Positions 2,342 to 45,215 of a stretch of 64,000 nucleotides of DNA are shown one piece after another; within the stretch, counting starts at the first letter, position 1, and the number at the start of each line of letters is the position of its first letter. The position numbers were made by a program, and so were the translations under genes. Source of the stretch: an uncultured Candidatus Saccharibacteria bacterium (GTDB taxonomy: Bacteria > Patescibacteriota > Minisyncoccia > Phycocordibacterales > UBA9973); contig CAYRQJ010000004.1 in NCBI GenBank assembly GCA_964426555.1, positions 19,109-83,108 of the forward strand, read 5' to 3'. The notes beneath the pieces were generated by a model that was not told the origin of the DNA, ran no database searches, and worked only from the letters and a program-made list of their open reading frames with translations.

Positions 2342-2418
2342 ATATATTACAACTATAGCACAAAAGGCCTATTTTTTAAATGGTGGTATAGATTTTATAA
2401 AATGCTACAATATACAAA

Positions 2419-3251: not shown

Positions 3252-3269
3252 ATTAAAATTTATAAACAA

Positions 3270-3296
3270 TAAAACCCCATTTAATGGGGTTTTATT
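3270..3296. terminator. bidirectional rho-independent terminator hairpin (AAAACCCCATTTAATGGGGTTTT)
   Basis: GC stem CCCCAT/ATGGGG flanked by A-run and T-run between convergent genes. Confidence 0.7.
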
Positions 3297-18266: not shown

Positions 18267-21200
18267 CTATTTATTATTTTCTTTATACTGTCTAATTTTT
18301 TCATTTATTTCTGAAGTTTTTGCTGCAAAAATAGCTTGTTCTCTTGAGCTCATTTGTTCTTGATTAATTACCTTATCAGTAATTTGATTTAATCTTTCAT
18401 CTGTAACTACATTTTTATCAACAAAACTATTCCATTCTTCGTCTCCAACTTCAGCTAAGCCTTTATTTTTATAGTATTCTTCAATATTTTTAGTTTCTTT
18501 GTCAAAATCTTCTTTATCTTTTATAGTTTTAGCTAAATTCTCTTCAGATTCTCTATATCTGTCTTCTAAGTCTTGTGGTATTTTTTCATTTGGATTGTTT
18601 TGTTCAAAATCTTCAAATTCTTTAAACAATTCTCTTTCTTTTGAAGTTGCTAAATCAATTTCTTTGTCTAATTCTTCTTCTTTTTCTGCTTGACGATATC
18701 TGTCTTCTAAATCTTGTGGTATTTTTGTATTTGGATTTTTTGCAACAAAATCTTCAAATTCTTGAAAAATAGTTTCTCTTCTTTTTTTACTAGTTTCTTG
18801 TTTTGATTCACTAATTGAACCCACAATATTTCCAGACCTATTATCTACTGCTTTTACTTTACCATCAACGGCTGTAACATCTTTTACTGCAGTTTTTTTA
18901 ACTTTATCTTGTCCACTAGCTTTTTGTTCTCTACCTTTATCTTTTTTATTTTCAGCTTGCTCCATTGGTCTTCGTGGAACTATTGGAACTGGGATCGGTG
19001 GTTCTATTTCAGTTTCTCCTGGTAAATCAAAACGAATATGATTTATTTGGTTATTATTAACAATTGTATCAGTTACACTACCAGCATGATCGGTACCAAT
19101 ATGAGTAGCCAGCATTTGCATATGCTCAACTCCATTAGCATCAACACCATGCAAGTTGCCTATTTCAGCATAAGCACCTGTAAATACAGCATGACCATTT
19201 GATGCTTTTTCTATCATCATTTGGAAAGCTGCACTATCGTGTGGAATTACACCATTACCAAATTCATCTACAGGAATTTTAATTGGAAACATTTGACCAT
19301 CTTTTGTTACAGACAATAATAAAAACAAATTTTTGTTTTCCATTTGATCATGCGCAGCAACGGAAATATCGTCTCTCCATGAACCATCATTTAACATATG
19401 TTTTACATTAAATACAGCATCTCCATTTTCGTTAAAACCAGATCCACCTACTCCGCCCCATTGTGCTTTAAGCTCATTAAAGTCAGCACCCAAAAGATGT
19501 CCTGGGTTATTTGGGTCTTCATACATTGGTGTATCATTACCCATCCAGTCTCTACTAATATGAGTACCTAATTCTTGATGATCACGCATATATTCAGTAG
19601 CAGATTTTGTAACTGTTTCTGTAGTATTTTCACCAATAAATACAGCATCAGTATTTACATCTGCGGCTCTTAATGCTGCAAGAGATTCTGGGGTTAATTG
19701 GTTAGTAGCTGGGTCAATAGTAAGATCTTTTGCTACCACATCACTACCATGCATTAAATTATAAGATCCGTCTGGGTTTTCATGCAAATCAACTCCATCT
19801 GGTAAATGAGCATGGACACCACCAATTATTTCCTCATGACCAACACCCATTGGGATTCTTGGACCACCACCAAATAAAAATCTTCGAGCTGATTCCATTG
19901 CAGTAGCAGTATCACTAACGTGCATGTCATCGTTTGGTCCTGTGAAATGATTATGTATGCCTTTTACAGTTCCTTCAATCACACCATCTTCGTGAGTAAA
20001 TAAAGATGTAACTTCTTGAGTAGCAAAACTAAATATTGCTCCACCGACTACTCCTTTTACAAAAGCTTTTGCAACTCTTTTTGCTTTTATTTTTCTATAA
20101 ACTTTATCTTTTTCACCAATTTCTCCCTCTGTTAGATCATTTGAAAAAGTATCAACTAATGTTTTAAAATTAGCATCAAAATTAGCATGACGAGGACTGC
20201 TTGATTTACGAAGAGCTACTTTTAACATTGCGGCTTTTTCTAAAATAGCAGTACGGTCTGATTCAACTTTATCAAAACTTTCGTATGAGACTAAATCAAT
20301 TTTATTTTTTTCACCAAGTTGAATACGTGATTCAAAATCAACTAATTCGGCAACAATTTGATCCGCTTCGGCATCTGTTAAATCACCTCGTTCAAGTAAT
20401 GCTAATGAATTATCAAATGTAGATTTTATTTCTGTCGCATTTCTTGTTTCGTAAGCAGTTTTGTCCATTTCATTGCGACGTTCCATGTCGGCATCAAATT
20501 TTGTACCCTTTGCTTTTTCGCGCATATGTTGTGTACGTTCTCTTCTTGTACGAACAGATTCTTTTGAAGCTTCAAATGCTCCACCCACAACAAGACCTCC
20601 ACCAAATGCTAACCATTTAGCTGTATTTTTTGCTAGGCTTTTACTTAATGCTTTAATACCAAAATATGCTCCAGCAATAGCCCCAGTAGCTCCTATATTT
20701 ATTAATGCAGTACCTAATTTGGTTTTACCTGATGCTTCCATTATCTTATCAAAAGCAGTCTTTGAAGCTTCAGAATTTAAACTTTCTCGGGCTTTACCAA
20801 GAGTAAGCTGTACATCAAAATCCATATCTTGCAATGATTGGCCGTGGGCAATAGAATCTTTAACTTCTTTAGCGATATCAAACAAATTATCTGCATACAA
20901 ACTATTTTCTTGAGCATAAGCAGGATTATGCAAAAAAATTAATCTATCTTTTTCTGCTTTAAAAGCTTCTTCACTCATTGTATTTGAAGCAGCGTAAGAT
21001 TTGATTAATTCTTTTATTTGATTATTTACAGCAGTATTTCCTTCTCTTTTGGACTCATTTTCTTCTTCTCTTAATATTTCATCAGAAAATTCACTGGTGA
21101 AACGATCAACAATACCTTTCATTGCATTCTTATTATGTTCAGCATCAGCGTGGCCTTCTTCGCCATATTGTTTTTCGCCTTCGTAAAGATTGCCACTGTC

Positions 21201-21482
21201 TAAAATTTGCTGACGAACTTTTTCAACTTCTTTATTGCGATAATAGTCTTGAGCTAAATTATGTTTCCAAATACGTTTAAAAAATCGTTTAGTTCGACTA
21301 CCGGAAAGATCATCTTTTGATTCTGTCATGCGAGCATCAGCAATATCACGAGATTGTGCCGCAGCCAACTCGTCTATATTGATAATTCCAGCTTTAAAGA
21401 CTTTCTTTTCTATTTTTTTAGATGGATCATTATTTTCGTCTTTTTTATTATTGGGAACAGCATTCGGTATTATTTTGTCCAT
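18267..21482 (-). CDS. large hypothetical membrane protein (1071 aa) with glycine-zipper TM segments and tandem 45-aa acidic C-terminal repeats
   Basis: TM-like GATGAIAGAYFGIKAL / WLAFGGGLVVGGAFEA; two copies of F(Q/K)EFEDF..NPN.KIPQDLEDRYR; no catalytic motif recognised. Confidence 0.6.
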   Translation of the reverse strand: MDKIIPNAVPNNKKDENNDPSKKIEKKVFKAGIINIDELAAAQSRDIADARMTESKDDLSGSRTKRFFKRIWKHNLAQDYYRNKEVEKVRQQILDSGNLYEGEKQYGEEGHADAEHNKNAMKGIVDRFTSEFSDEILREEENESKREGNTAVNNQIKELIKSYAASNTMSEEAFKAEKDRLIFLHNPAYAQENSLYADNLFDIAKEVKDSIAHGQSLQDMDFDVQLTLGKARESLNSEASKTAFDKIMEASGKTKLGTALINIGATGAIAGAYFGIKALSKSLAKNTAKWLAFGGGLVVGGAFEASKESVRTRRERTQHMREKAKGTKFDADMERRNEMDKTAYETRNATEIKSTFDNSLALLERGDLTDAEADQIVAELVDFESRIQLGEKNKIDLVSYESFDKVESDRTAILEKAAMLKVALRKSSSPRHANFDANFKTLVDTFSNDLTEGEIGEKDKVYRKIKAKRVAKAFVKGVVGGAIFSFATQEVTSLFTHEDGVIEGTVKGIHNHFTGPNDDMHVSDTATAMESARRFLFGGGPRIPMGVGHEEIIGGVHAHLPDGVDLHENPDGSYNLMHGSDVVAKDLTIDPATNQLTPESLAALRAADVNTDAVFIGENTTETVTKSATEYMRDHQELGTHISRDWMGNDTPMYEDPNNPGHLLGADFNELKAQWGGVGGSGFNENGDAVFNVKHMLNDGSWRDDISVAAHDQMENKNLFLLLSVTKDGQMFPIKIPVDEFGNGVIPHDSAAFQMMIEKASNGHAVFTGAYAEIGNLHGVDANGVEHMQMLATHIGTDHAGSVTDTIVNNNQINHIRFDLPGETEIEPPIPVPIVPRRPMEQAENKKDKGREQKASGQDKVKKTAVKDVTAVDGKVKAVDNRSGNIVGSISESKQETSKKRRETIFQEFEDFVAKNPNTKIPQDLEDRYRQAEKEEELDKEIDLATSKERELFKEFEDFEQNNPNEKIPQDLEDRYRESEENLAKTIKDKEDFDKETKNIEEYYKNKGLAEVGDEEWNSFVDKNVVTDERLNQITDKVINQEQMSSREQAIFAAKTSEINEKIRQYKENNK

Positions 21483-22012: not shown

Positions 22013-23065
22013 ATGTTTAACAGCAAAGGAGCCGCAACGGCACCACAAACAGAAGAAGCTCTATTAGAGCAGTTCTTGGTAAACGAGAACAACGTACAAA
22101 TGAACATTAAGTCTCTAGTACGCAAAATCGAGGAATTAAAGAATAAACTTGCTAAAATGAGCAAGGAGTTGTTTGGGACAGAAAACTTTACTGAAAAGAA
22201 AAGTTTTTGGCCTCATGTTCTTCTTTTTTTAATTCTTTTACTGGTTGCTGGAATTGAAATCCCAGTAAACGCGATGTCTTTCGAAATCTTTGACCGTAAT
22301 CCTGAGGAGACTCAGATTATGGCAATCGGTTTTGGTTTTTTAATCGCAGTTTTGGCTCACTTTACAGGATTTAGCCTGAAAAGAGCTTTTTCTGGAGAAA
22401 AGAATTTTTATTTCATATTTTTTGCCTGCATCATAATTGCTGGTTTTGCATTCTACACAACTGCATCATTTAGATTGCAGTATGCAGAAATTATGCATCG
22501 CAATGGGGTTTTAAAGTTTGGTCAGCAATTTTTCTTTGGCGTTGTAATGTACATCGTTGGAGCAATTGCAAGTTTTTTCCACACTAGTGGGGTAAAAAAC
22601 AGTAACCTTGAAAAGGTTTTCAAGGCCGAATTAAATAACCTAAGGTCTACAAAAATAGATCTAGCAAAAAATGTAGCAAAACGAGATCAATTGCGTAAGC
22701 AATATGCACTCGATAAAGCTGCAATTGAGCAAGCTAAAATTGATGAAATTAAACAAGAAAATGAAGAAAACAAAAAAATAGCCAAAAACGAAGCAGACCG
22801 GAATGAAAAATCTAAGAACACTGCAATCGAAATGAGAGCAGAGTTTGAAGAAATTTCAAAAAAGTTTGATATTGATTTAGGTAAAGCACAAGTAATGTTA
22901 AGTGATTCAACTTTTTCTAAGGCTCAAATGGAGGAATTTATTCCTTATATGGAGATAAAAGAAAGACTAGAATTATTATTAGCTGATGCTGCAAAAGTTT
23001 CTTCAAACGAAACCATGGGCAGGCTTGATGAAATGAACAATCAGTTTAACAATTTAAATGCTTAA
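22013..23065 (+). CDS. hypothetical membrane protein: N-terminal coiled coil, 4 TM helices, long C-terminal coiled coil
   Basis: 350 aa; hydrophobic helices at about aa 65-85, 100-120, 133-153, 170-190; K/E-rich heptad-like C-terminal 150 aa; overlaps next gene by 8 nt. Confidence 0.6.
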   Translation: MFNSKGAATAPQTEEALLEQFLVNENNVQMNIKSLVRKIEELKNKLAKMSKELFGTENFTEKKSFWPHVLLFLILLLVAGIEIPVNAMSFEIFDRNPEETQIMAIGFGFLIAVLAHFTGFSLKRAFSGEKNFYFIFFACIIIAGFAFYTTASFRLQYAEIMHRNGVLKFGQQFFFGVVMYIVGAIASFFHTSGVKNSNLEKVFKAELNNLRSTKIDLAKNVAKRDQLRKQYALDKAAIEQAKIDEIKQENEENKKIAKNEADRNEKSKNTAIEMRAEFEEISKKFDIDLGKAQVMLSDSTFSKAQMEEFIPYMEIKERLELLLADAAKVSSNETMGRLDEMNNQFNNLNA

Positions 23066-24375: not shown

Positions 24376-25572
24376 ATGAAAATTAAAAATAAAATACTAA
24401 TCTGGATAATATTCATTATTCTTTCCTCATGTTCAAAGTTCCAAAAAGGTGGCGTCGATGAAACTGGCCTTGATATGGTTGAAGTTGAAGTTCCCTATTT
24501 TGGTAAACTATACACATTTGATTTTTATGGCAGAGAAATCACAATAAAAATTAATCCGTCTATAGTAGCTGATCTTGATTTGGAAAGTAACGACACTGCT
24601 CAAATTAGAGAGTTAGTTAAAAATCTAAAAGACAAAAATTTTGATAAAACAGTAAAAATGCTGATTGACCAAGCAAAAGAAATGGAGCTTGATGCTTTTG
24701 GCTATAGATTACTGTTAAAAAAGTTTGTTGAAGAAATTCTTGAAGACAAATCAAAAAACTTTGGAGAAGTCATAATGTGGTATGGGTTACGAACTAATGA
24801 CCTTGATGCGATACTTTCTAAAAAAGGTAAGCGGATTTTTTGCTATTCTTCTGGGTGGGGTTATTATTTTGTGAGAGATAAAACCGATGAAACAAATAGA
24901 GGAATGATGTCTTTAAATATAGAAAACACAGGGTACTGGAATGACAATAAGAATATTAATCCTGAAAACCAAGACCTACTTTTATCTTTTGATTTATTTC
25001 CAAAATCTAAACATTGCGATTTTATTTTTTCTAAAAAACTTCCTAAATTAGGCAAAAAGATTTTTTCTAAAAAAAGAAGCTTTGTTTATAAAGGAAGAGT
25101 TTATCAATTAAAAACATCATACAATAAATACTTTGTGCAATATTTAAACTCTCTCCCAATGAGAGGGCTTGGCAGAGAATATTTTAAAATTGAATTTAGT
25201 AAAGAAACTACGCAAAGTTTTGATTCTATACCTATGTGGATTAATGGCAAAACAAATGATGAAAAATTTAGCTTTTTACTAACTCTTGTGGATCAAGCTT
25301 TTCCTCATAGCGGTGGCGACAAAATTGAAAAATGGAATTATGTTGAACAAACCATGAAAGATGATTACGTCGACTGCGAAGACAGAGCAATTATGTTTTG
25401 CTATTTAGCAGAAAGATTTACAGATTCCAAAGCAGCCCTAGTCTTAAACGATGGTCACGCATGGGGTGCTGTACTAAACCAAAAATCATACAAATATACT
25501 ATGTGTGATCCGGGGTTAAAGTTGGGTCAAATGCTAGAACCAAATAAAAAATTCCGGATAATAGATCCTTAA
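24376..25572 (+). CDS. lipoprotein with C-terminal transglutaminase-like cysteine-protease core
   Basis: Signal plus ILSSC lipobox; C-terminal DCEDRAIMFCYLAERF...DGHAWGAV...MCDPG matches the Cys-His-Asp arrangement of transglutaminase-like superfamily. Confidence 0.6.
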   Translation: MKIKNKILIWIIFIILSSCSKFQKGGVDETGLDMVEVEVPYFGKLYTFDFYGREITIKINPSIVADLDLESNDTAQIRELVKNLKDKNFDKTVKMLIDQAKEMELDAFGYRLLLKKFVEEILEDKSKNFGEVIMWYGLRTNDLDAILSKKGKRIFCYSSGWGYYFVRDKTDETNRGMMSLNIENTGYWNDNKNINPENQDLLLSFDLFPKSKHCDFIFSKKLPKLGKKIFSKKRSFVYKGRVYQLKTSYNKYFVQYLNSLPMRGLGREYFKIEFSKETTQSFDSIPMWINGKTNDEKFSFLLTLVDQAFPHSGGDKIEKWNYVEQTMKDDYVDCEDRAIMFCYLAERFTDSKAALVLNDGHAWGAVLNQKSYKYTMCDPGLKLGQMLEPNKKFRIIDP

Positions 25573-28638: not shown

Positions 28639-29568
28639 TTATTTTTTTGTATTTTTTACTAAAATTTCTGTAGCTTTTCCAAGTAGTGGAATAATATTTT
28701 CGTATAGTGCTAAATTTGGAATACTGGATAATGGAAACCATTTTACATCATCAAGTCCACCTTCTTTTTGTAATTTAAGATCTTTAAATTCTGCACGTGC
28801 TAAGAAATAAACAGCTTGTTTACGAATTTTACCTTTTACTGGATGTGATGCAATGTATTCATTGCGACCAAGTTCGTCTTCTACAACTACTTCAATATTT
28901 AATTCTTCTTTAATTTCTCTTGCAGCCCCAACACGTTCGTCTTTAATGTCATCTATTCCGCCTTTACTTAAAGTCCAAAACCCAAAGATATCGTGCACTA
29001 ATGCAAAATAAATAGTGTCTTTTTCTATTGCATAAATTACAGCTCCGGCTTTTTTCTCTATGGGTAGCGTATCCGGGTCTACAACAACAGGTTCAGTTTT
29101 GGTATTTATTTTTCTTTTGCCATTTTTACCATTTTCATCTTTTCCGGGTTGACCCATTTCTTTATAAACTGCACCCAATACTCCATTTACGAATTTAGGT
29201 GACATATCAGCCCCAAACGCTTTTGCTAGTTCTATAGCTTCGTTAATGGCAACTTTTGGTGGAACATGCTCGTTGTCACCAAATATTAATTCGGCAAGTC
29301 CAATGCGTAAAATATTTCGGTCAATGATACCTATTTTTTCTATAGGCCATTCCGGAGCAGCTTTAACAATAACATCATCTAAAATAGATTTTTTACTAAT
29401 TATAAGTTTTGTAAGTTCACGAGCAAAAGCCGCATCAGGATGTCCTGGTGCAAATTCTGTAATATTTCTGTTTACAATAGCTGGAACTTCTTCCACAAGA
29501 AGATTCCTGAAATCCCATTCAAATAGGGACTGTAGTACGATAGAGCGAGATAAATGCCTGTTTGCCAT
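28639..29568 (-). CDS. nusB: NusB antitermination domain fused to a C-terminal Nudix-like hydrolase domain
   Basis: aa 1-140 NusB (IDRNILRIGLAELIF...VAINEAIELAKAFGADMSPKFVNGVLGAV); Lys/Gly linker; aa about 175-309 with REIKEELNIEV (REUxEE Nudix-box core). Confidence 0.7.
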   Translation of the reverse strand: MANRHLSRSIVLQSLFEWDFRNLLVEEVPAIVNRNITEFAPGHPDAAFARELTKLIISKKSILDDVIVKAAPEWPIEKIGIIDRNILRIGLAELIFGDNEHVPPKVAINEAIELAKAFGADMSPKFVNGVLGAVYKEMGQPGKDENGKNGKRKINTKTEPVVVDPDTLPIEKKAGAVIYAIEKDTIYFALVHDIFGFWTLSKGGIDDIKDERVGAAREIKEELNIEVVVEDELGRNEYIASHPVKGKIRKQAVYFLARAEFKDLKLQKEGGLDDVKWFPLSSIPNLALYENIIPLLGKATEILVKNTKK

Positions 29569-35389: not shown

Positions 35390-38300
35390 TTATATTACAG
35401 GCTCTGGGGCTGGTTCAGGATCTGGTGTTGGTGCTGGATCAGGGTCAGGTGTAGGAGCTGGATCGGGCGTTGGAGTTGAGTCTGGTGTTGGGTCTGGAGT
35501 AGGCGTTGGATCTGGTGTTGGAGATAGATCAGGTGTTGGATTTGATGCAGGAGATGGTGTTATTCCACTTTGATTTACCATTTGTAAGAATTGCTCTTCG
35601 TTAACACAGACACTGCCAACACACAATTCTTTTGTTTGAACTTTATCTGCATTTATTAATTTAGTAAAGATTACTTCTATATTATTCCCCACATCTGCCA
35701 AGAATATCTTTATCTTATTTGCTAAACTATTTTCTTTTGTTGTATCAAGTGAAGATAAATCTGTAACTTTTAAATTAAGTTCTTGAATAGCATTTAGTGC
35801 AATCATTTGTAATTCAAGATTATATGAAACTGCATAGTATCCATTTTTTTCTTTAACTAAATCAGGGAAAACTTGTGCCATTTCTTGAGCGATTAAACCA
35901 ACTTGTCTTCCTGATACATAACGTAGTGTTCCACCCAAGCTTTCTATGTCTTCATTCCATTCAAATGATACTGGGCGAAGTTGCATAACTTTTTCTAAAG
36001 ATCCAGTTAGTGAAGTAATATTATGTTTTAATCTTTCGTCAGATGTACATGTCCCAGCAACTTGAGCGCCGGCTTCTCGGAAACAGTCATCAGTATTAAT
36101 ATCGGCTACAACGTCTAGACCGTAGTCGGGAGTAGTATCTCCAATACCGACTTTACCATCACTAATAATTGTCATTCTATCAGTACCTGTTGTGGTTGTG
36201 GTATTAGCCGCAGTATAAAAAGTAATTGTGGTTACAGCGTTTGTAAGTGAACTACCACCACCAATACCAAAATTAGTTACGGCACTACTTGATGTGTAAT
36301 TAAACAATGCTACTGGCTCTTCGGCATTTGTATAATGAGGACCAACGATACGGGCATTTTTATCAGTAACGTTAGTTCTTGTATTTAAAGTATTGTCAGC
36401 ACCCAGCATCATAGTTATACCACCATTACTAATATCTAATGGATATGAAGGAGTTGCGGTAAGAATACCTAGACGATTATTTGTATCATCCCAGAAGAAG
36501 TTTGAATTGTCTTGAGAAATTAAACCGCCTGTCCCAGTAAAAGGAACTGAGCCTGATGTTAATGTAGAAAATGTAATATTCCCAGATGATGTTATGCCAG
36601 TAGCGGCTGCTATTGCACCACTGGAATTGACTTGAAATAAATCACCATCACCAACAGTAAACTTTGCTGCAGGAGACGCGTCCCCTATACCAATATTCCC
36701 AGTAGACAATGTTGTACCTGTACCATCTATTCCAGTACCAAATATTAAGTTACCAATAGTCATCGTATTTGTAGATGTAGCCGTTGGAGCATCAATGTCG
36801 TAGCCGATGACAATGTTATATGAACCAGTAGTAATATTATTACCAGCTTGGTAACCAAAAAGAGAGTTACCATCTGCACCAGTAGCAAATAATCTTGTGG
36901 TATTATGTCCAACCGCAGTATTTCCACTTACTGTTGTATCCGCAACTGTTGCAACCCATGCATGTCCACCTATAACCGTATTATATGAGCCGAGATAGTT
37001 AGCCGTAAGTGCGTAAGTACCCAATGCGATGTTATAAGTTCCAGTACTTGTATTATTCCCTGAAGAATAACCTAGGGATGCATTGTTAGTTCCAGTTGTA
37101 ACACCAGAAAGTGCATATTCCCCAACACCACTATTGTAGCTTCCGGTTGATAAATTAAACAACGATTGCTGACCAACAGCAGTATTGTCGCTTCCTGTAG
37201 TATTGTAATACATACTTGCTTTACCCAACGCAGTATTTGCTTTCCCTGTTGTATTTGCAGCCATAGTATCTGCACCAAATGCAACATTTGAATGACCTGT
37301 GGTTAATGCAGACATTGTATTTTTACCAACAGCACTATTATAGCTTCCTTCCCATACTAATGTAGCAGTTGAGCCTATGGTAAAGTTTCCGGAACTTTCT
37401 CCAACGAAAGTATTTCCCCCCGAAGTTGTCACTGCTCCATTATTCCCATAGTTAAAATCATGGATAAATCTATTTCCATCTTTATAAATAATTCCGTATT
37501 GTGCAGCAAAACTTGTTGCTGGCATTCGGAAGTTTTTTGTAATTTCAAGTTGTTCATTTGGTGTAGCTATACCTATACCAATGTTACCAGTAGACAACGT
37601 AGCATTGACCCCATCAATACCTGTTCCAAAAATAAGATTACCGATATTTAAAGTATTATCCTGAGTATAGTCTTGCGGTTCAATATCGTAGCCAATCATT
37701 ATGTTATGGTCTGCTGAAGACCAGCCAAGACCTGCGTTTTTACCAATAAATATATTGTTACTACCAGAGAAAGCCCCGCCTCCACCAGCAGATTGTCCTA
37801 AAATTGTATTGCCTGAACCAGAAGCATGAGAAGCAGCACTATCTCCAATACCTATATTGTCTGAACCGGTAGAATTACCAAGAGCGCCACTACCGATCGC
37901 AACACCGCTACCACCAGTGGCATCCTGAAGAGCTCCATATCCTATTGCAATAGCTCCGCTACCATCATAATTCTCTAATGCACCATGACCTATTGCGATA
38001 GAATAAGCTGCACCAGTTCCATTTTTTAACGCGTCAACACCTATTGCAACATTAGACTCACCATAATCATTGCTATATAAAGTACGATAACCAATAGCCA
38101 CATTATTATAACCCGAATCATTTACATTAAAAGCTTGATAACCAAAAATAGTATTTGTATTATCATTACTTGGTCCACGCCCAAGTCGTAAACCATTTAT
38201 TAATGCTTCTCCGTTTACATCTAATTTTGCTAATGGAGTCGCAGTACCAATACCAATACTTCCTGTTGAAACCGTTGTGCCTGTACCGTCGATTCCTGTA

Positions 38301-39322
38301 CCAAAAATAAGATTACCAATAGATAGTTGGTTATCACCACCAGCTGTTGGTAAATCAATATCGTAGCCAATAATAATATTATTGTCAGCACCAGTAGTTA
38401 AATTATTTGCGGCTTGGTAACCAATAAAAATATTATTTGCAAATACATCACCACCTTCATTTGCATTAGTACCAGCTCTGGCACCCAAAACAACATTATA
38501 TCCACCAGAAGTGTTACTATATAATCCTCTATTTCCAAAAATAGTATTATAACTACCGGTATTAAAAGGTGCAGAAGAACTACCAACCGCAGTATTGTAA
38601 CTACCGCTAATATTGTAAAGTAAAGACAAACTTCCAACACCAACATTGGCTTGTCCTGTTGTGTTGTTGTATAAAGCACCGTTACCAGCAACAGCTGTAT
38701 TATCTACTCCGGTTGTATTATTTTTTAAAGCGTTATATCCAATACCCGCATTTGAATATCCTGTGGTTACACTATTTAAAGCATTTTTACCAAATCCAGA
38801 ATTATAGCTTCCTTGCCAAGAACTAGTAGCCGTAGAACCCATTGTTAAATTACCAGCACTTTCACCAACAAAAGTACTTGACCCCTCAGTTGTCACTGTT
38901 CCATTGTTTCCATAAGTAAAATTATGAATGAACGTATTTGCCCCTTTGTAAATTATTCCGTATTGTGCAGCAAAACTTGTATCTGGTATTCGGAAGTTTT
39001 TTGTAATTTCTAATTGTTGATTTGGCGTATTCGTCCCTATACCTAATCTATTATTTGTATCATCCCAAAAGAAGTTTGTATTATCTTGTGTTAATGTAGA
39101 ACCATCAGAAAAAGCTATAGAGCCAGTTGTAAGAGTTGGTAGAATTGATACATAACAGTTAGCATCACCAGGTGCACAAGTAGGATCAAGCATAGCGTCA
39201 GATGGTATATATGGTAAACCAAAAGCTACTCCAGTACCAAAAATACTAAATATCACTGTGGCAATAATGAATTGTTTATTGTATTTAAGCCACTTTATCA
39301 TAACTATAATCTTGTCCCACAA
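35390..39322 (-). CDS. giant repetitive cell-surface fibre-like protein (1310 aa) with C-terminal intramolecular-chaperone (Peptidase_S74-like) domain and Pro/Thr-rich tail
   Basis: N-terminal signal-anchor identical to paralog; arrays of about 14-15 aa NTA[VI]G..[AS]L.[NS]N repeats (beta-helix/fibre-like); C-terminal TSDERLKHNI...LRPVSFEWNED...VGLIAQEMAQVFPDLV; ends TPTPDPTPD... Confidence 0.85.
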   Translation of the reverse strand: MWDKIIVMIKWLKYNKQFIIATVIFSIFGTGVAFGLPYIPSDAMLDPTCAPGDANCYVSILPTLTTGSIAFSDGSTLTQDNTNFFWDDTNNRLGIGTNTPNQQLEITKNFRIPDTSFAAQYGIIYKGANTFIHNFTYGNNGTVTTEGSSTFVGESAGNLTMGSTATSSWQGSYNSGFGKNALNSVTTGYSNAGIGYNALKNNTTGVDNTAVAGNGALYNNTTGQANVGVGSLSLLYNISGSYNTAVGSSSAPFNTGSYNTIFGNRGLYSNTSGGYNVVLGARAGTNANEGGDVFANNIFIGYQAANNLTTGADNNIIIGYDIDLPTAGGDNQLSIGNLIFGTGIDGTGTTVSTGSIGIGTATPLAKLDVNGEALINGLRLGRGPSNDNTNTIFGYQAFNVNDSGYNNVAIGYRTLYSNDYGESNVAIGVDALKNGTGAAYSIAIGHGALENYDGSGAIAIGYGALQDATGGSGVAIGSGALGNSTGSDNIGIGDSAASHASGSGNTILGQSAGGGGAFSGSNNIFIGKNAGLGWSSADHNIMIGYDIEPQDYTQDNTLNIGNLIFGTGIDGVNATLSTGNIGIGIATPNEQLEITKNFRMPATSFAAQYGIIYKDGNRFIHDFNYGNNGAVTTSGGNTFVGESSGNFTIGSTATLVWEGSYNSAVGKNTMSALTTGHSNVAFGADTMAANTTGKANTALGKASMYYNTTGSDNTAVGQQSLFNLSTGSYNSGVGEYALSGVTTGTNNASLGYSSGNNTSTGTYNIALGTYALTANYLGSYNTVIGGHAWVATVADTTVSGNTAVGHNTTRLFATGADGNSLFGYQAGNNITTGSYNIVIGYDIDAPTATSTNTMTIGNLIFGTGIDGTGTTLSTGNIGIGDASPAAKFTVGDGDLFQVNSSGAIAAATGITSSGNITFSTLTSGSVPFTGTGGLISQDNSNFFWDDTNNRLGILTATPSYPLDISNGGITMMLGADNTLNTRTNVTDKNARIVGPHYTNAEEPVALFNYTSSSAVTNFGIGGGSSLTNAVTTITFYTAANTTTTTGTDRMTIISDGKVGIGDTTPDYGLDVVADINTDDCFREAGAQVAGTCTSDERLKHNITSLTGSLEKVMQLRPVSFEWNEDIESLGGTLRYVSGRQVGLIAQEMAQVFPDLVKEKNGYYAVSYNLELQMIALNAIQELNLKVTDLSSLDTTKENSLANKIKIFLADVGNNIEVIFTKLINADKVQTKELCVGSVCVNEEQFLQMVNQSGITPSPASNPTPDLSPTPDPTPTPDPTPDSTPTPDPAPTPDPDPAPTPDPEPAPEPVI

Positions 39323-39431: not shown

Positions 39432-42400
39432 TTATTCGGTTGTTGTTTCAGTATTAATTACTGGGTCTTCGTTAACTGTTTGGGTTGGTATTTCAGGAAT
39501 AGGTGGTGTTTCAACAGTTGAATTATCAGTATTTTCTTCAATATTTTGGTTCTCTTGTGTAGTATCTGTATTTGGTACTGGGTCAGGTGTTGGGGTTGGT
39601 TCAGGAGTTGAATCAGGAGTTGGTGTTACGTTTTGTGATTGTAATAGCTGTTGTAATTCTTGTTTTGTAATACAAACATCATCAATACAAAGTTTTTTAG
39701 TGTAAACTTCGTCAACAAAAATTGATTGAATTCCGTTCCCTACATCACTCAAGAATATTTTTATACGACTAGCTAAACTATTTTCTTTTGCGGGGTCAAG
39801 AGAATTTAAATCGGTAATTTTTAAATCTAAGTCTTGAATACTTTTAACAATTAATGGAGTTAGTTGAGAATAAGAAACTTTCCAATACTCATCTGGGTTA
39901 GACGGAATGATAACAGCATCAGGGTATGCATTGTACAATTCTTGAGCAACAAAACCATGAACACGAACATTTGGCTCTCGAATATATGAAAAATCTCTTA
40001 CCTTTATATCCATTAAGTTTCTTAGACTTAGACCAGTATCAACAATGTCTTGCTTTAGTCTTTGGTCAGAAGTTGTGGTTAATGTTAGTGTACCGGTTAC
40101 CAAAGACACAGTTCCAACATCACCACCGTCACCATCGTTAAACTGAATCCATTTACCAGCACTAGGAGTGTCTGCTCCGGCTTGATTGACTATACCAAAA
40201 CGGTAAAAATCATTACAATCGATTAAAAAATTTGAAGAATAATCAGCAGCATCCTCAAGAACAGTAAGCCTGTGTGTACCCAAAGTCACACTTCCGATTG
40301 TTGTTTTACCTAGGTTGGTCCAGTTCCCAGCGTCATCTAAATATGCAATAGATGATGAACTAGAATTAAGAGCATGTATGTTTTTTGTTGATGATGTTGC
40401 ACCTTGACCTTTAATCATTAATCTTGTGCTACCTATACCACCATTACTAGTATTACCAATAAAAGCATTACCATTAACATCAAAATCATTAACCGGAGAC
40501 ATTGATACACCAACTCTTCCACCAAAATATGCTGCATAATTATTAGTAGCTCCAGTAGGAACCTCAACATAAAGGCCGTACGCATTTGTTGCACTCGATA
40601 CAGAACTACCTTGTTGAATATACAACCCAATTGAATTTGTTATACTTGCATTTGTACTTTTAATAGGGGCGCCAGCAATAGCCATTGTTGCAGCATTAGT
40701 TATAGTACTTGCCCCCACAAATGAATATGTTGGTTGAGTTATTAATACTTCTCTTTGGGTTGCTATTGCACCTGTTGCCCATTGTCTACCCGCAGTAGTT
40801 AAAGTTAGTGATGGAATCTCAGTTGAGGCTGTTTGATTTGTATTAACAGCACCAGTGTACACAATACCTTTTAATGCACCAGTACTAGTAATAGTCTGAG
40901 CAACCTCAAGTTTGCCAGTGGGTGCAGCTATGCCTATACCAATATTTCCTGTTGATACAGTTGTGCCAGTTCCATCTATTCCAGTACCAAAGATAAGGTT
41001 ACCAATGGATAATTGGCTATCAGTTGTTGCGGATGGTGCATCGATATTATAACCAATTACAATATTTTTAGAACCGGTAGTTAATGCATCACCAGCTTGC
41101 CAACCTAATAAAATATTATAATCACCACTTGTCGCAGCAAGTCCTGAACCATAGCCAATAGATGTATTACCAGTACCCGATGTTGAAGTAAACAAGGCTT
41201 TATAACCAATCCCAATTGATTGATCTGCTGTAGTATTGGTTAATGATTGACTACCAAATACTTGATTACCAATACCCACATTGTCAGTACCGATCGTTTC
41301 AACTGCTGCATGATACCCTAAATAGACGTTATCAGAACTAGTTGTAATTGCTGCACCTGCTAAATATTCACTGGCCATAGCTTCTTGCCCAATTACAACA
41401 TTTCGAAAACCAACAAGTGAATATCCTGCGGCTGAACCCATCAACACATTTCCTCCACTGGTACCACTGGTTGTAATATTGAACCCAGAAGATTCTCCAA
41501 TAGAGATGTTATTACTACTTGTTGAAATATTTCTAAGTGCATCTTTATTTATAGCTACGTTAGAATAACCAGAACTAAGTGGTTGCGCAGCAGCAGCTCC
41601 AATTGCAACATTAAACTGTCCACTAGACAGATTTAACATTGTATTGTCACCAATAGAAATATTTCTATCTCCAGTTGCTGAAGAGTTAAGAGAATTACCA
41701 ATACCGATATTTGAATATGGAGTTACTCCTGTAGATGCAGTTCTGTGAATATACCAGTCACCTGCAACGCTACGAATTCCTGTATCCATAGTTGCTGTTG
41801 TAAATCTTAGTTCAGCGGTAGAAGAAGAGAGTGTGACAGATGCACCAGTTGTACTAACAGCTCCAGTTGAAGTAACTTGGAATTGTGATGTTGATCCAAC
41901 AGAAAACATATTTGTTGGGCTTGTATTCCCACCAATATTTACAAGCCCGCCAGTAGATATTCGCATTCTTTCAACACCAAGTGCTCCATTGTTTGTTCCA
42001 AAAACAATATTTCCACTATAAGTATTAATAACAAAATTAGTTACAGCTCCGCCTATTTGAAAACCAGCTTGACCTGTAGCACCTAAAGACATCTCATTAT
42101 AACCACCACTGGAACCATTTATAAAAAATTTTGCATAGTTTGAACCACTACCACCATTTGCATTGTATAAAGTTAAATCTGGAGTCCCAGTGGTTGATGT
42201 GTTTTCAATTAATATTTTTGTTTGTGTAGCATCGGCGTCTTTAATTAACAAAGCTTCTCCTGGAGCAGTAGCTCCAGTACCTATACCTACACGACCAGTA
42301 TCACGAAAAGTAACAAAAGCAGTACCGTTATCTTTAATTAAGAAATCCCCAGTTGAAGTTAAATCAACAAACGAATCAGTAGAAGTACCAGCAGTTAATG

Positions 42401-45215
42401 AATATATTCCAGATGATGTTATACCAGTCGCAGCTGCTATTGCACCAGATGAATTGACTTGAAATAAATCACCATCACCAACTGTAAACTTTGCTGCAGG
42501 ACTTGCATCACCGATACCCACATTCCCAGTTGAAAGTGTAGTCCCTGTGCCATCTATTCCTGTACCAAAGATTAAGTTACCAATAGACATTTGACCATCT
42601 GTCGTATTGCTTGGTGCGTCAATGTCATAACCAATGACAATATTCTTGTCACCAGTTGTTATTGCATTACCAGCAGCATAACCAATAGCGATGTTGTTTG
42701 CAGCGTCCCCCATACTTTGACCAGCACCAAAACCTATCAAAGTGTTGCCATCAGCAGCTAAATTTAGGCCAGCAATAGTACCAATTATTGTTGAATAATT
42801 AATTGCAGCGGTTGTTTGTCTTGCTGCACCATATCCAATAACTACATTGTCAGCACCAGCTCCATCACGAAGAACGGCTGAACCAATGGCTACGTTTTCA
42901 TTACCCGAACTTGTAAACATTGCTCTGTAACCCATAACTATGTTATCACTATCTCCAGCTAATCCTGATCCGGCTTCATAACCAATAGCAATGTTATCAC
43001 TACCTGTTGTAGAAATACCATTCATGGCACTTGTACCAATAGCAATGTTTTGCGATGCTGTTGTTAATGCATTTAAAGACGATACACCAATACCAATGTT
43101 ATTAGCTCCTTCGGTTACAAGTCTTAAACCACTAATACCCACATTATTACCACCACTTGTTGTGTCTTGTCCTGAATATTGACCAACACCACCTGCGCGA
43201 CCGGCAAAGAAATTGTTTGAGCCTGTTGTTACAGCACTAAATGTTCCCTGGTTTAAAACAGTATTAAGTAATGTTGTATCAAAACGAAGAGCAAATACTC
43301 CACCTATTTTATATCCATTAGTTAATACTCCAGTACTTGATGTGTTAAAGAAACCCGTAGCGCTACTAATCACAGCAGAAGCCCCTGAGCCTGACAATGT
43401 TAGTGCCGCACCAGTTGAATCTAATGTTTTTGCTCCGGCAAAAGTTTGTGTACCTGTTGTAACAACACCACCAAATGAAGCGGAAGCTGGTTCAAGATTT
43501 AAAGTAACCCCAGAAATAGTAGCGCCATTTGAATTTGCTGATGAACCAATAACCCCAATAGTTGTAACACCACCAGATGCTGCTGCCCATGTTAATGTTC
43601 CTGATCCATTATTTGTTAAAACATAACCACTGGCTCCAGCCTGAGATCCGGGCCATGTATAAGTAACATTATTTATTTTTACGATATTCCCAGATGAATC
43701 AACTTGGAATAGGTCTCCATTACCTACGGTTAATAATGAGGCAGGAGTAGTATCCCCAATACCTAAATTACCGGAATTAATTACTCGAATTTTTTCAGTT
43801 AAAGAACCACTAGTTGTTGTTGAGAAAGAAATATATCCAGTATTATTTACTCGGTTTTGGAAATAAAATTGCCCAGCATTAGAAGCTGCAGATTGACTGA
43901 ATCCTCCAACACGATAATTCACAGTTCCTGGCCATGCTCCTTCTCGTAAATCAAGTAATGTTTGATTTGTCCCTGCAACATCTTGCATTACAAATTGAGC
44001 TGCACCACTTGTTGCCCCTGCACGAATAGTCACATCTCCACTGGCTGTCATAACGTCTAATCTTACATTAGGTGATGCAATACCTATACCGATATTTCCA
44101 CTGGAAACTGATGTCCCTGTTCCATCAATACTTGTACCAAAGATTAAGTTACCAATAGATAATTGATTATCACCACTGGCAGTTGGTAAATCAATATCGT
44201 AGCCGATAATAATATTATTACCCGCACCTGATGTTGCATTATTAGCAGCTTGATATCCAATAAAAATATTATTGTCTAAATTACCAGTCCCACCAGTATT
44301 ATAACCAGAATCATATCCCAAGGAAACATTATTACTACCACCAGTATTTGAACGTAATGCATTTAACCCCATTCCAATATTGTAATTACCAGTTGAATTA
44401 TTGTATAAAACATTTCCCCCTATACCAGTATTATATAAACCAGTATTGTTATACAAAGCATTTGTACCGACGGCAGTATTATACCCAGTTGTACTATTTG
44501 AATACAGAGCATTGACCCCAACTGCAGTATTTCCACTACTAGTAGTATTATTTCTTAAGGCATATACACCAAACGCAGCATTAGATACTCCACTACTATT
44601 ATTTTCTAAAGACTGTTTACCAACAGCTGTATTGTCTACACCACCAATATTTGAATATAACGTCCTGTATCCAACAGCAGTACTACCATTCCCTGTATTT
44701 GTATAAAGAGCAGTATATCCAATTGCAGTATTTTGAAGAGCAGAAACTGAACTATATAAAGTCTGATAACCCACGGCAGTATTTTGACTACCATTAGTAT
44801 TTGAATTTAAAGTTTGATAACCCACTGCGGTATTTGTAGCAACACTACCAGCACCAAGACCAACACGAATATTATTTAATAAAACATCAGATCCAGAAAC
44901 TTCAAGTTTATAAGTAGGCGTATTCGTTCCTATCCCTAATCTATCATTTGTATCATCCCAAAAGAAATTTGTATTATCTTGTGTTAATGTAGAACCATCA
45001 GAAAAAGCTATAGACCCGGTAGTAAGCGTTGGTAGAATTGACACATAACAGTTAGCATCACCTGGTGCACATGTAGGATCAAGCATAGCGTCAGATGGTA
45101 TATATGGTAAACCAAAAGCTACTCCAGTACCAAAAATACTAAAGATCACTGTGGCAATAATGAATTGTTTATTGTATCTAAGCCACTTTATCATAACTAT
45201 AATCTTGTCCCACAA
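39432..45215 (-). CDS. giant repetitive cell-surface fibre-like protein (1927 aa), paralog of 35390..39322
   Basis: N-terminal 95 aa identical to paralog except 2 residues; long NTA[VI]G/NN[IV][SA][IL]G repeat arrays; shared 40-aa block NIGIGDASPAAKFTVGDGDLFQVNSSGAIAAATGITSSG; C-terminal TTSDQRLKQDIV...VRDFSYI...HGFVAQELYNAYPDAV chaperone domain; PT/E-rich tail. Confidence 0.85.
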   Translation of the reverse strand: MWDKIIVMIKWLRYNKQFIIATVIFSIFGTGVAFGLPYIPSDAMLDPTCAPGDANCYVSILPTLTTGSIAFSDGSTLTQDNTNFFWDDTNDRLGIGTNTPTYKLEVSGSDVLLNNIRVGLGAGSVATNTAVGYQTLNSNTNGSQNTAVGYQTLYSSVSALQNTAIGYTALYTNTGNGSTAVGYRTLYSNIGGVDNTAVGKQSLENNSSGVSNAAFGVYALRNNTTSSGNTAVGVNALYSNSTTGYNTAVGTNALYNNTGLYNTGIGGNVLYNNSTGNYNIGMGLNALRSNTGGSNNVSLGYDSGYNTGGTGNLDNNIFIGYQAANNATSGAGNNIIIGYDIDLPTASGDNQLSIGNLIFGTSIDGTGTSVSSGNIGIGIASPNVRLDVMTASGDVTIRAGATSGAAQFVMQDVAGTNQTLLDLREGAWPGTVNYRVGGFSQSAASNAGQFYFQNRVNNTGYISFSTTTSGSLTEKIRVINSGNLGIGDTTPASLLTVGNGDLFQVDSSGNIVKINNVTYTWPGSQAGASGYVLTNNGSGTLTWAAASGGVTTIGVIGSSANSNGATISGVTLNLEPASASFGGVVTTGTQTFAGAKTLDSTGAALTLSGSGASAVISSATGFFNTSSTGVLTNGYKIGGVFALRFDTTLLNTVLNQGTFSAVTTGSNNFFAGRAGGVGQYSGQDTTSGGNNVGISGLRLVTEGANNIGIGVSSLNALTTASQNIAIGTSAMNGISTTGSDNIAIGYEAGSGLAGDSDNIVMGYRAMFTSSGNENVAIGSAVLRDGAGADNVVIGYGAARQTTAAINYSTIIGTIAGLNLAADGNTLIGFGAGQSMGDAANNIAIGYAAGNAITTGDKNIVIGYDIDAPSNTTDGQMSIGNLIFGTGIDGTGTTLSTGNVGIGDASPAAKFTVGDGDLFQVNSSGAIAAATGITSSGIYSLTAGTSTDSFVDLTSTGDFLIKDNGTAFVTFRDTGRVGIGTGATAPGEALLIKDADATQTKILIENTSTTGTPDLTLYNANGGSGSNYAKFFINGSSGGYNEMSLGATGQAGFQIGGAVTNFVINTYSGNIVFGTNNGALGVERMRISTGGLVNIGGNTSPTNMFSVGSTSQFQVTSTGAVSTTGASVTLSSSTAELRFTTATMDTGIRSVAGDWYIHRTASTGVTPYSNIGIGNSLNSSATGDRNISIGDNTMLNLSSGQFNVAIGAAAAQPLSSGYSNVAINKDALRNISTSSNNISIGESSGFNITTSGTSGGNVLMGSAAGYSLVGFRNVVIGQEAMASEYLAGAAITTSSDNVYLGYHAAVETIGTDNVGIGNQVFGSQSLTNTTADQSIGIGYKALFTSTSGTGNTSIGYGSGLAATSGDYNILLGWQAGDALTTGSKNIVIGYNIDAPSATTDSQLSIGNLIFGTGIDGTGTTVSTGNIGIGIAAPTGKLEVAQTITSTGALKGIVYTGAVNTNQTASTEIPSLTLTTAGRQWATGAIATQREVLITQPTYSFVGASTITNAATMAIAGAPIKSTNASITNSIGLYIQQGSSVSSATNAYGLYVEVPTGATNNYAAYFGGRVGVSMSPVNDFDVNGNAFIGNTSNGGIGSTRLMIKGQGATSSTKNIHALNSSSSSIAYLDDAGNWTNLGKTTIGSVTLGTHRLTVLEDAADYSSNFLIDCNDFYRFGIVNQAGADTPSAGKWIQFNDGDGGDVGTVSLVTGTLTLTTTSDQRLKQDIVDTGLSLRNLMDIKVRDFSYIREPNVRVHGFVAQELYNAYPDAVIIPSNPDEYWKVSYSQLTPLIVKSIQDLDLKITDLNSLDPAKENSLASRIKIFLSDVGNGIQSIFVDEVYTKKLCIDDVCITKQELQQLLQSQNVTPTPDSTPEPTPTPDPVPNTDTTQENQNIEENTDNSTVETPPIPEIPTQTVNEDPVINTETTTE

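What the first reader, a model, noticed from the sequence alone, without database searches (positions are those of the whole stretch)
35750..36045. C-terminal self-cleaving intramolecular-chaperone domain (SDxRLK ... GxIAQE) followed by a Pro/Thr-rich tail in both fibre proteins
Gene B has TSDERLKHNITSL...LRPVSFEWNED...VGLIAQEMAQVFPDLV...YYAVSYNLELQMIALNAIQEL (DNA about 35750-36045). Gene A has TTSDQRLKQDIVDT...VRDFSYI...HGFVAQELYNAYPDAV...VSYSQLTPLIVKSIQDL (DNA about 39790-40071). This matches the consensus of the endosialidase/tail-fibre chaperone (Pfam Peptidase_S74-type), which autocleaves at the Ser of S-D-x-R-x-K after trimerisation. Unusually, both carry a further about 120-aa extension ending in (TPDP)n low-complexity tails, which would be released with the chaperone.
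Basis: partly seen in the sequence, partly recalled or inferred. Interest (0 to 1): 0.7.

Follow-up and report, generated by a model that had tools for sequence, protein, structure and literature searches.

The report
Self-cleaving chaperone on bacterial surface fibres
Two giant secreted fibre proteins of an ultra-small (CPR/Patescibacteria) bacterium end in the same self-cleaving folding domain that phage tail fibres use, here extended by a conserved cysteine-hairpin module and an acidic disordered tail that solved and viral versions lack.

Summary

The genes are not phage genes. They lie between pheT and gyrB on a bacterial chromosome. Each starts with a Sec-type signal sequence and a conserved N-terminal domain. 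A related Patescibacteria MAG (GyrB 85% identical) has a syntenic pair. The closest described analogue is the S74 subgroup of Bdellovibrio MAT fibres.

The ~120-aa extension is real. It follows the coiled-coil helix where solved ICA domains stop matching, and where T5 pb1 ends. It has two parts:
- a conserved ~60-aa helix / C-x4-C beta-hairpin / helix module;
- a 56-64-aa tail rich in Pro, Thr, Asp and Glu, with no basic residues.

At least ~130 representative proteins share this module. Named genomes carrying it are all Patescibacteria. It was never seen apart from S74, and was absent from viral S74 relatives.

Most likely the module is a pro-peptide released by cleavage at T1093|S1094 (B) and T1715|S1716 (A). 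Cleavage and the extension's role are inferred, not shown. Verdict: new variant of a known kind, moderate interest.

The parts
35390..39322 (-). Gene B: 1310-aa secreted fibre protein (the ORF opens at TTG 39322; an ATG at 39301 is an alternative start). A terminator-like hairpin at 35377-35348 follows the stop codon.
39432..45215 (-). Gene A: 1927-aa secreted fibre protein and paralogue of B. The 1920-aa version starting at the ATG is present in the public protein collection as P0003. A promoter-like site for gene B lies at 39382-39354.
39218..39322 (-). Gene B N-terminal Sec-type signal sequence (basic n-region KWLKYNK, 17-aa hydrophobic core, AFG|LP site). Cleavage versus signal anchor was not resolved.
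   Evidence: sequence inspection plus hydropathy; relatives show AFA|T and TFA|L sites
39023..39217 (-). Gene B conserved N-terminal domain with the Cys loop DPTCAPGDANCYV. It is nearly identical in gene A (44916-45110).
45111..45215 (-). Gene A N-terminal Sec-type signal sequence.
35753..36043 (-). Gene B S74/ICA core, aa 1094-1190, from the catalytic Ser to the end of the coiled-coil helix.
36041..36043 (-). Gene B Ser1094 codon, the predicted nucleophile. The scissile bond is T1093|S1094. Its partner Lys1099 is at 36026-36028.
   Evidence: the Ser-Lys mechanism is taken from Bd3182 S782 and T5 S1264 (PMC10769870, PMC4690869)
35561..35752 (-). Gene B family-specific add-on module, aa 1191-1254: helix, Cys1234-x4-Cys1239 beta-hairpin (Cys codons 35621-35623 and 35606-35608), helix.
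35393..35560 (-). Gene B disordered acidic (TPDP)n-like tail, aa 1255-1310, net charge -10, no Lys or Arg.
39807..40070 (-). Gene A S74/ICA core, aa 1716-1803. Ser1716 codon is 40068-40070 and Lys1721 codon is 40053-40055. The scissile bond is T1715|S1716.
39627..39806 (-). Gene A add-on module, aa 1804-1863, with Cys1843 (39687-39689) and Cys1848 (39672-39674).
39435..39626 (-). Gene A disordered acidic Thr/Pro/Glu/Asn-rich tail, aa 1864-1927, net charge -14, no Lys or Arg.

Best explanation
Genes A and B encode secreted, phage-fibre-like trimeric surface fibres of a Patescibacteria (CPR) bacterium. They are analogous to the S74 subgroup of Bdellovibrio MAT fibres.

Each protein is made as a pre-pro-protein with these parts, in order:
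1. A Sec signal sequence.
2. A conserved N-terminal domain with a Cys loop (probably the cell-proximal attachment end).
3. A long repetitive shaft built of ~520-aa super-repeats.
4. A tip.
5. A C-terminal S74/ICA domain.

Inferred mechanism, based on characterised S74 proteins:
- After export, the three C-terminal ICA domains associate through their coiled-coil helix.
- They template in-register folding of the trimer from the C-terminus backwards.
- The Ser-Lys dyad (S1094/K1099 in B; S1716/K1721 in A) then cuts the chain just before the Ser.
- This releases a 217-aa (B) or 212-aa (A) pro-peptide and unmasks the distal fibre tip.

The released piece carries an add-on that solved and viral S74 domains lack:
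- A ~60-aa helix / disulfide-stapled C-x4-C beta-hairpin / helix module sits directly after the coiled coil, which is where folding is thought to nucleate. My best guess is that it reinforces trimer nucleation and stability outside the cell.
- A 56-64-aa polyanionic Pro/Thr-rich disordered tail follows. My best guess is a solubilising or spacer segment with no positive charge that could hinder export.

What is shown: domain identity, fold, invariant catalytic residues, cellular context, conservation of the add-on, and its absence from viral S74s.

What is inferred: trimerisation, cleavage, disulfide formation, surface location, and the role of the add-on.
For: S74 identity:
- Pfam 59.3 and 35.5 bits against a cut-off of 22.
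- A family profile hits solved S74 domains at E 7e-12 to 2e-4.

Catalytic residues:
- Ser 129/129, Lys 129/129 and Asp 126/129 in full-module relatives.
- The invariant G..AQ motif is also present.

Cellular rather than phage origin:
- The window carries 5S and 23S rRNA, a tRNA, gyrB, pyruvate kinase, thrS, pheST, rpoD, dnaG, RNase R, secD and ftsW. No phage genes were found.
- Both proteins have an N-terminal hydrophobic signal sequence.
- MAG L002 (GyrB 85% identical) also has two tandem fibre genes directly upstream of gyrB, with the same N- and C-terminal modules.

Fibre nature:
- The shaft repeats hit PHROG tail-spike and virion-structural families at E 1e-38 to 1e-52.
- Gene A weakly hits the Bdellovibrio MAT fibre Bd2133 (8ond, E 7e-4).

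The add-on is conserved and family-specific:
- An exhaustive profile search gave 118 representatives at E<1e-30.
- 136 of the top 151 cover the whole module and 123 of those have CxxxxC.
- Both Cys are invariant in the 38- and 74-sequence alignments.
- Solved, PHROG, GenBank-phage and IMG/VR S74 matches all stop at the coiled-coil helix.
- T5 pb1 ends two residues after that helix, and folding is proposed to start there (PMC4690869).

Tails across 133 relatives: 0.6% Lys+Arg, median net charge -13, 99% negative.

Precedent for cleavage in a cell-encoded fibre: Bd3182 self-cleaves at S782, and the S782A mutant blocks it (PMC10769870).
Against: - No experiment and no proteomic data were available, so cleavage, trimerisation and surface display all rest on analogy.
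- Only monomer models could be made. The add-on has moderate confidence (block pLDDT 58-87; extension-only model pLDDT 73), so the hairpin and disulfide are plausible but not established.
- Signal-peptide cleavage versus an uncleaved signal anchor was judged by eye and hydropathy only.
- The proposed roles of the Cys module and the acidic tail have no direct support.
- Taxonomic attribution rests on MAG labels and on 85% GyrB identity to one MAG. The window's own genome was not found in the species-representative collection.
- The similarity to the MAT fibre Bd2133 is marginal.
Confidence: 0.72

Rival explanations
1. The two genes are phage or prophage tail-fibre genes, possibly a remnant, and the S74 domain works exactly as in a virion fibre assembled in the cytoplasm.
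For: The shaft repeats and the S74 core are homologous to phage tail-spike and tail-fibre families.
Against: - Both neighbours are housekeeping genes (pheT upstream, gyrB downstream), and no phage gene was found in 64 kb.
- Both proteins begin with a Sec-type signal sequence, which virion fibres lack.
- The same two-gene arrangement sits at the same chromosomal position in a related MAG.
- The add-on module was not found in any of 259 GenBank phage records or 52 IMG/VR loci with related S74 cores.
Confidence: 0.04
2. The S74 module is not cleaved off. It stays as a permanent C-terminal trimerisation cap, and the acidic Pro/Thr tail is a functional part of the mature fibre (for example a wall-spanning or host-contacting brush).
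For: - Pro/Thr-rich acidic segments often serve as extended spacers in Gram-positive surface proteins (general knowledge, not tested here).
- The tail property is conserved across the family.
- Some auto-chaperone domains, such as the P22 tailspike fin, are not cleaved (PMC4690869).
Against: - The Ser-Lys dyad is invariant in 129/129 members, which is hard to explain without catalysis.
- Every characterised protein with this dyad self-cleaves, including K1F, T5, MyRF and Bd3182.
- The tail sequence is not conserved and has no terminal motif or sorting signal.
Confidence: 0.12
3. Cleavage occurs, but the released 212-217-aa fragment is itself the functional product, or is a regulated cap. It could be a secreted trimeric factor. 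Alternatively it could be a safety cap that stays non-covalently bound and masks the adhesive tip until host contact, with the Cys module and tail mediating that function.
For: - The add-on is more conserved between A and B than the S74 core and is conserved family-wide, implying selection beyond a throw-away peptide.
- In T5 the uncleaved chaperone masks receptor binding.
Against: - No homology or fold match points to any effector or binding function.
- The module is never found on its own. The apparent stand-alone hits are fragments of frameshifted fibre genes.
- Conservation is equally expected for a folding nucleus.
Confidence: 0.12

Closest known systems
Bdellovibrio bacteriovorus MAT (mosaic adhesive trimer) fibres, S74 subgroup, e.g. 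Bd3182 (Caulton et al. 2024, PMC10769870)
   Same: - Encoded by a bacterial cell rather than a phage.
- Signal peptide, then a conserved N-terminal domain, then a long trimeric phage-like shaft.
- C-terminal S74 domain with SDxxxK. Self-cleavage is proven for Bd3182 (S782).
- Found in a bacterium that must recognise other cells.
- Gene A has a marginal sequence hit to Bd2133 (8ond, E 7e-4).
   Different: - Different phylum and envelope type (the envelope difference is from general knowledge).
- The N-terminal domain here has its own Cys-loop motif, and homology to the MAT N-domain was not tested.
- The released fragment is 212-217 aa versus ~140 aa in Bd3182.
- The Cys-hairpin module and acidic tail have no counterpart in any solved S74 sequence matched here; MAT S74 sequences themselves were not available for comparison.
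Phage C-terminal intramolecular chaperone domains: K1F endosialidase (3GW6), T5 pb1 (4UW8), GA-1/phi29 gp12 (3GUD)
   Same: - Same Pfam family.
- Same Ser-Lys spacing.
- Same position at the C-terminus of a fibrous protein.
- The coiled-coil helix ends the core.
   Different: - Phage domains stop matching at the coiled-coil helix, and T5 pb1 ends two residues after it. Here ~120 further residues follow.
- Phage fibres fold in the cytoplasm without a signal peptide or disulfides. These proteins are exported and carry conserved Cys pairs.
Eukaryotic MyRF ICA domain (7DC3)
   Different: In MyRF the cleavage frees an N-terminal transcription factor from a C-terminal membrane anchor. Here the C-terminal piece has no membrane segment and is presumably discarded.

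Membership tests
Peptidase_S74 / intramolecular chaperone autoprocessing (ICA, CIMCD) domain, PF13884 | Profile match above the curated threshold | tested here: met
   B scores 59.3 bits and A 35.5 bits against a gathering score of 22. A family profile hits solved S74 domains at 7e-12 to 2e-4.
Peptidase_S74 / intramolecular chaperone autoprocessing (ICA, CIMCD) domain, PF13884 | Catalytic Ser and Lys spaced Ser+5 (S-D-x-x-x-K) | tested here: met
   S1094/K1099 in B and S1716/K1721 in A. Both residues are invariant in 129/129 relatives.
Peptidase_S74 / intramolecular chaperone autoprocessing (ICA, CIMCD) domain, PF13884 | Conserved G-x-(I/V)-A-Q-E motif in the core | tested here: met
   GLIAQE in B and GFVAQE in A. 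G, A and Q are invariant in the 38-sequence alignment.
Peptidase_S74 / intramolecular chaperone autoprocessing (ICA, CIMCD) domain, PF13884 | ICA fold (alpha/beta body ending in a coiled-coil helix) | tested here: met
Peptidase_S74 / intramolecular chaperone autoprocessing (ICA, CIMCD) domain, PF13884 | Trimerisation-dependent autoproteolysis that releases the domain | not testable with these tools
   This needs expression with S->A and K->A mutants, or proteomics.
Bdellovibrio-type MAT fibres (S74 subgroup) | Signal peptide at the N-terminus of a cell-encoded fibre | tested here: inconclusive
   A basic n-region, a 17-aa hydrophobic core and an AFG|LP site are present. 85 of 113 long relatives have such a segment. 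No dedicated predictor was available, so cleavage versus anchor is unresolved.
Bdellovibrio-type MAT fibres (S74 subgroup) | Homologous ~130-aa beta-rich N-terminal domain | not tested
   No MAT N-domain sequence was available. The proteins here have their own conserved N-domain with a DPxCxPGDxxC loop.
Bdellovibrio-type MAT fibres (S74 subgroup) | Shaft homologous to MAT beta-helix | tested here: inconclusive
   The only support is a marginal hit of gene A aa 960-1103 to Bd2133 (8ond, E 7e-4).
Phage tail fibre / tailspike gene | Located in a phage or prophage genome among virion genes | tested here: not met
   The genes are flanked by pheT and gyrB. The 64 kb window holds only housekeeping genes and ORFs without a family match. 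A related MAG has a syntenic pair.
Phage tail fibre / tailspike gene | Shaft repeats homologous to phage fibre or spike families | tested here: met
   PHROG 4636 (tail spike), 23837 and 6002 match at E 1e-38 to 1e-52.

The most novel reading that the evidence does not exclude
The conserved helix / Cys-hairpin / helix module plus polyanionic tail is more than a discarded folding aid. It would be a new extracellular trimer-nucleating or capping device, specific to Patescibacteria, that controls when the adhesive fibre tip is unmasked. It could stay bound until host contact, or act as a released factor. On this reading, these hypervariable fibres at a fixed chromosomal locus are the host-recognition determinants of CPR episymbionts.
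Probability: 0.15. Interest if true: 0.75.

Novelty: new variant of a known kind. Interest (0 to 1): 0.45.

Why it matters
How CPR/Patescibacteria recognise and attach to their host cells is largely unknown; the papers seen here point to type IV pili and otherwise uncharacterised adhesins. This locus suggests that they also deploy phage-like, self-maturing trimeric fibres. That would parallel the MAT fibres that Bdellovibrio uses to recognise prey.

The fibre locus diverges much faster than its neighbours. Fibre modules are 40-60% identical between genomes whose GyrB is 85% identical. The end modules are shuffled, and the 5' ends of A and B are 93% identical to each other. This is the pattern expected of a host-range determinant.

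The conserved add-on after the coiled coil gives a concrete, mutable handle for asking how an S74 chaperone, which evolved for cytoplasmic folding, is adapted to fold fibres outside a cell.

In practical terms, the cleavage sites predicted here define the mature fibre tips that could be expressed for binding studies.

Tried and rejected
- Exact look-ups of gene B (both possible starts) and of P0003 (= gene A) found no contig. Only GyrB located a public contig, JAHZTO010001083.1, which breaks inside gene B.
- The word-indexed protein search gave only 2 hits for the whole module and 5 for the extension. The exhaustive representative search was what revealed the family.
- The short proteins that seemed to be stand-alone extensions (P0160-P0164) start at an internal Met of 'QEMNLKITD'. 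In L009 they are pieces of a frameshifted fibre gene. An independent extension protein is therefore rejected.
The narrower alignment A4 worked but reaches only A-type S74 relatives.
- The degenerate DNA pattern for TKELC-x4-CVT found nothing in IMG/VR. It also matched none of my own loci, so it is uninformative.
- The apparent 98% coverage hit in Synechococcus virus S-PRM1 is a read-through across two CDS, not an extension.
- The afdb50 fold library was unavailable.
- NCBIfam gave nothing meaningful.
- The PDB hit to PBCV-1 P14 (C-x4-C followed by a Pro-rich repeat) is mostly low-complexity scoring and was not pursued.
- Literature searches combining S74 or intramolecular chaperone with CPR terms found no paper.
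Full report
**What is there**

Two long minus-strand ORFs lie head to tail: gene B (35390-39322, 1310 aa) and gene A (39432-45215, 1927 aa).
- In B, SDERLK is aa 1094-1099 (DNA 36043-36026) and GLIAQE starts at aa 1142.
- In A, SDQRLK is aa 1716-1721 (DNA 40070-40053) and GFVAQE starts at aa 1754.
- Pfam PF13884 (Peptidase_S74, 'chaperone of endosialidase') matches both above its curated cut-off of 22 bits: 59.3 bits (E 4.4e-16) in B and 35.5 bits (E 1.2e-8) in A.

**Domain identity tested further**

- A profile built from 38 family members hits solved S74 domains by sequence: tail fibre 8jov (7e-12), long tail fibre distal subunit 6f45 (2e-10), MyRF ICA 7dc3 (9e-8), T5 pb1 8hqz (8e-5) and neck appendage protein 3gud (2e-4).
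- An AlphaFold2 model of B aa 1082-1262, made with that alignment, has mean pLDDT 79.
- In 129 relatives that carry the whole module, the Ser and the Lys five residues later are invariant (129/129). The Asp is nearly so (126/129).
- The G..AQ motif is invariant in the 38-sequence alignment.
- The same dyad is the proven nucleophile/base pair in Bd3182 (S782) and T5 pb1 (S1264) (PMC10769870; PMC4690869).

Autocleavage at T1093|S1094 (B) and T1715|S1716 (A) is thus strongly predicted but not demonstrated.

**Context: a bacterial chromosome, not a phage**

- The window carries 5S rRNA, the end of 23S rRNA and a tRNA.
- Around the two genes are gyrB, pyruvate kinase, thrS, NusB-NUDIX, RNase III, SMC, pheS/pheT, a UvrD-type helicase-nuclease, sortase, rpoD, dnaG, RNase R, secD and ftsW. 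No phage gene was seen.
- Gene A directly follows pheT, and gene B directly precedes gyrB.
- Both proteins begin with a basic n-region, a 17-residue hydrophobic core and an AFG|LP site. Relatives show AFA|T, TFA|L and IFA|I. This looks like a Sec signal peptide, which virion fibres do not have.
- Next comes a conserved domain with the loop DPTCAPGDANCYV.

A scan of one genome per species found relatives with the module in MAGs labelled Candidatus Saccharibacteria, Paceibacterota and Nomurabacteria. The MAG locus L002 has a GyrB 85% identical to the window's. It has the same arrangement: two tandem fibre genes immediately upstream of gyrB, then thrS, NusB-NUDIX and RNase III. Both of its fibre genes have the same N-terminal motif and the same C-terminal module plus tail. 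The window therefore comes from a Patescibacteria (CPR) bacterium, and the fibre pair is a conserved chromosomal locus.

**The fibres**

- The shafts are repetitive. A 221-nt segment recurs five times about 1.57 kb apart (two copies in B, three in A), marking ~520-aa super-repeats.
- The repeats match PHROG tail-spike and virion-structural families at E 1e-38 to 1e-52.
- Gene A gives a marginal hit to the Bdellovibrio MAT fibre Bd2133 (8ond, E 7e-4).
- The first ~300 nt of A and B are 93% identical, but their C-terminal modules are only 41% identical.
- In L002 the gyrB-proximal gene carries the A-type rather than the B-type S74 module.

The locus therefore evolves by module shuffling and is far more divergent than its housekeeping neighbours.

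**The extension**

Solved S74 domains stop matching at the coiled-coil helix. All PDB sequence matches stop by profile position ~108, and T5 pb1 ends two residues after that helix. In B that helix ends at about aa 1190, and 120 residues follow. In A, 124 residues follow.

The extension has two parts.
1. A conserved ~60-aa module (B aa 1191-1254; A aa 1804-1863).
   - It is predicted as a helix, a beta-hairpin whose strands carry the two invariant cysteines (C-x4-C; C1234/C1239 in B, C1843/C1848 in A), and a short helix.
   - Some relatives have 8-9 residues between the cysteines. That fits an intra-chain disulfide stapling a hairpin better than a fixed-geometry metal site. This is an inference.
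2. A 56-aa (B) or 64-aa (A) tail.
   - Across 133 relatives, tails have a median length of 70 aa.
   - Their composition is 12% Pro, 16.5% Thr, 11.5% Ser and 22% Asp+Glu, with only 0.6% Lys+Arg and almost no aromatics.
   - The median net charge is -13, and 99% of tails are negative.
   - There is no conserved terminal motif.
   - B's tail is (TPDP)n-like. A's is so only for its first ~20 residues.

**How widespread is the extension, and is it viral?**

- An exhaustive HMMER search of 1.84 billion representatives, using a profile of the whole module, gave 145,690 hits at E<1e-3 (S74 in general). 118 hits reached E<1e-30.
- Of the best 151, 136 cover the whole module and 123 have CxxxxC.
- Sources name these proteins only 'hypothetical protein'.
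- PHROG S74 tail-fibre families match B only up to aa <=1193.
- Hits in 259 GenBank phage records stop at query residue ~100-113. The single apparent exception is a read-through across two CDS.
- 52 IMG/VR loci all stop by residue 124.
- An extension-only profile found only fragments of frameshifted fibre genes.

The add-on is therefore a family trait of these cellular fibres. It was always attached to S74 and was not seen in viral S74 domains at this sensitivity.

**Mechanism proposed**

By analogy with K1F, T5 and Bd3182, the exported chains associate through the ICA coiled coil. The chaperone templates the trimer and then cuts itself off. This releases a 217-aa (B) or 212-aa (A) pro-peptide and unmasks the tip. 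In T5, only the processed protein binds its receptor.

The add-on sits exactly where folding is thought to nucleate. I propose that it strengthens or registers trimer nucleation in the dilute, oxidising extracellular milieu. I propose that the basic-residue-free acidic tail is a solubilising or spacer segment. These last two points are guesses with no direct evidence.

Rival readings are listed separately with their odds: phage genes, an uncleaved permanent cap, and a functional released fragment or safety cap.

**Comparison with what is known**

The nearest described system is the S74 subgroup of Bdellovibrio MAT fibres (PMC10769870). These have a signal peptide, a conserved N-domain, a phage-like trimeric shaft and a self-cleaving S74 end, in a bacterium that must recognise other cells.

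The differences here are the phylum, the N-domain motif, and the ~75-residue-longer released fragment with its Cys module and acidic tail. Text searches found no paper linking S74 or intramolecular chaperones with CPR bacteria. A standard Pfam annotation would nevertheless flag the domain.

**Verdict**

The setting is a CPR bacterial surface-fibre locus rather than a phage. The finding is a new variant of a known kind. It is of moderate interest, mainly as a candidate host-recognition system of CPR episymbionts and as an S74 chaperone adapted to extracellular folding.

Noticed in passing
window 36654-36874, 38217-38437 (gene B); 40903-41123, 42481-42701, 44053-44273 (gene A): A 221-nt segment recurs about every 1.57 kb, so the shafts are built of ~520-aa super-repeats (two in B, three in A). 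Each ends in the motif '...IGYDIDxPTA...SIGNLIFGTGIDGTGT...'.
   Followed up: partly
window 39005-39304 vs 44898-45197: The 5' ~300 nt of genes A and B are 93% identical, while their C-terminal modules are only 41% identical at protein level. This suggests gene conversion at the N-terminal end and shuffling of the end modules. In the syntenic MAG L002 the gyrB-proximal gene carries the A-type S74 module.
   Followed up: partly
P0006 (5473 aa, from an NCBI contig of 47.8 kb; not in the window): A relative has four to five internal S74 domains. At least three are followed by a 'LCLG(G/T)(D/E)CRSSWP' Cys motif. It may be a polyprotein that cuts itself into several fibre units. Other relatives carry two or three S74 domains.
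   Followed up: no
window 18267-21482 (-); also 22013-23065 (+) and 24376-25572 (+): A 1071-aa ORF and two ORFs of 350-400 aa have no Pfam match at E<=1e-5.
   Followed up: no
window 53110-53700 (-) and 53718-55010 (-): A sortase gene lies next to a 430-aa protein with an Ice_binding-like domain, which may be a sortase substrate or surface-protein pair.
   Followed up: no
window 35600-35640 (gene B aa ~1227-1245) vs PDB 6ncl chain a0: Chlorovirus PBCV-1 minor capsid protein P14 has 'EETCDGDVCVSDEY' followed by (PAPK)n. This weakly resembles 'KELCVGSVCVNEEQF' followed by (TPDP)n (E 8e-4). Most of the score comes from low-complexity sequence.
   Followed up: no
window 28639-29568 (-): NusB is fused to a NUDIX hydrolase domain in one 309-aa ORF. 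The same fusion is present in the public contig and in the related MAG.
   Followed up: no
L001 (NCBI JAHZTO010001083.1, GCA_020049755.1), locus positions 1-3618: The only public contig found with an identical GyrB ends inside gene B. The repetitive fibre genes therefore break assemblies, and such loci are probably under-represented in MAGs.
   Followed up: no
gene B aa 1081-1093 (window ~36044-36082): Gene B has a Cys pair (C-x10-C) whose second Cys lies two residues before the catalytic Ser. 75 of 129 relatives have Cys at that -2 position. Gene A instead has a 'TLTLTTT' strand, so two tip types sit upstream of the scissile bond.
   Followed up: partly
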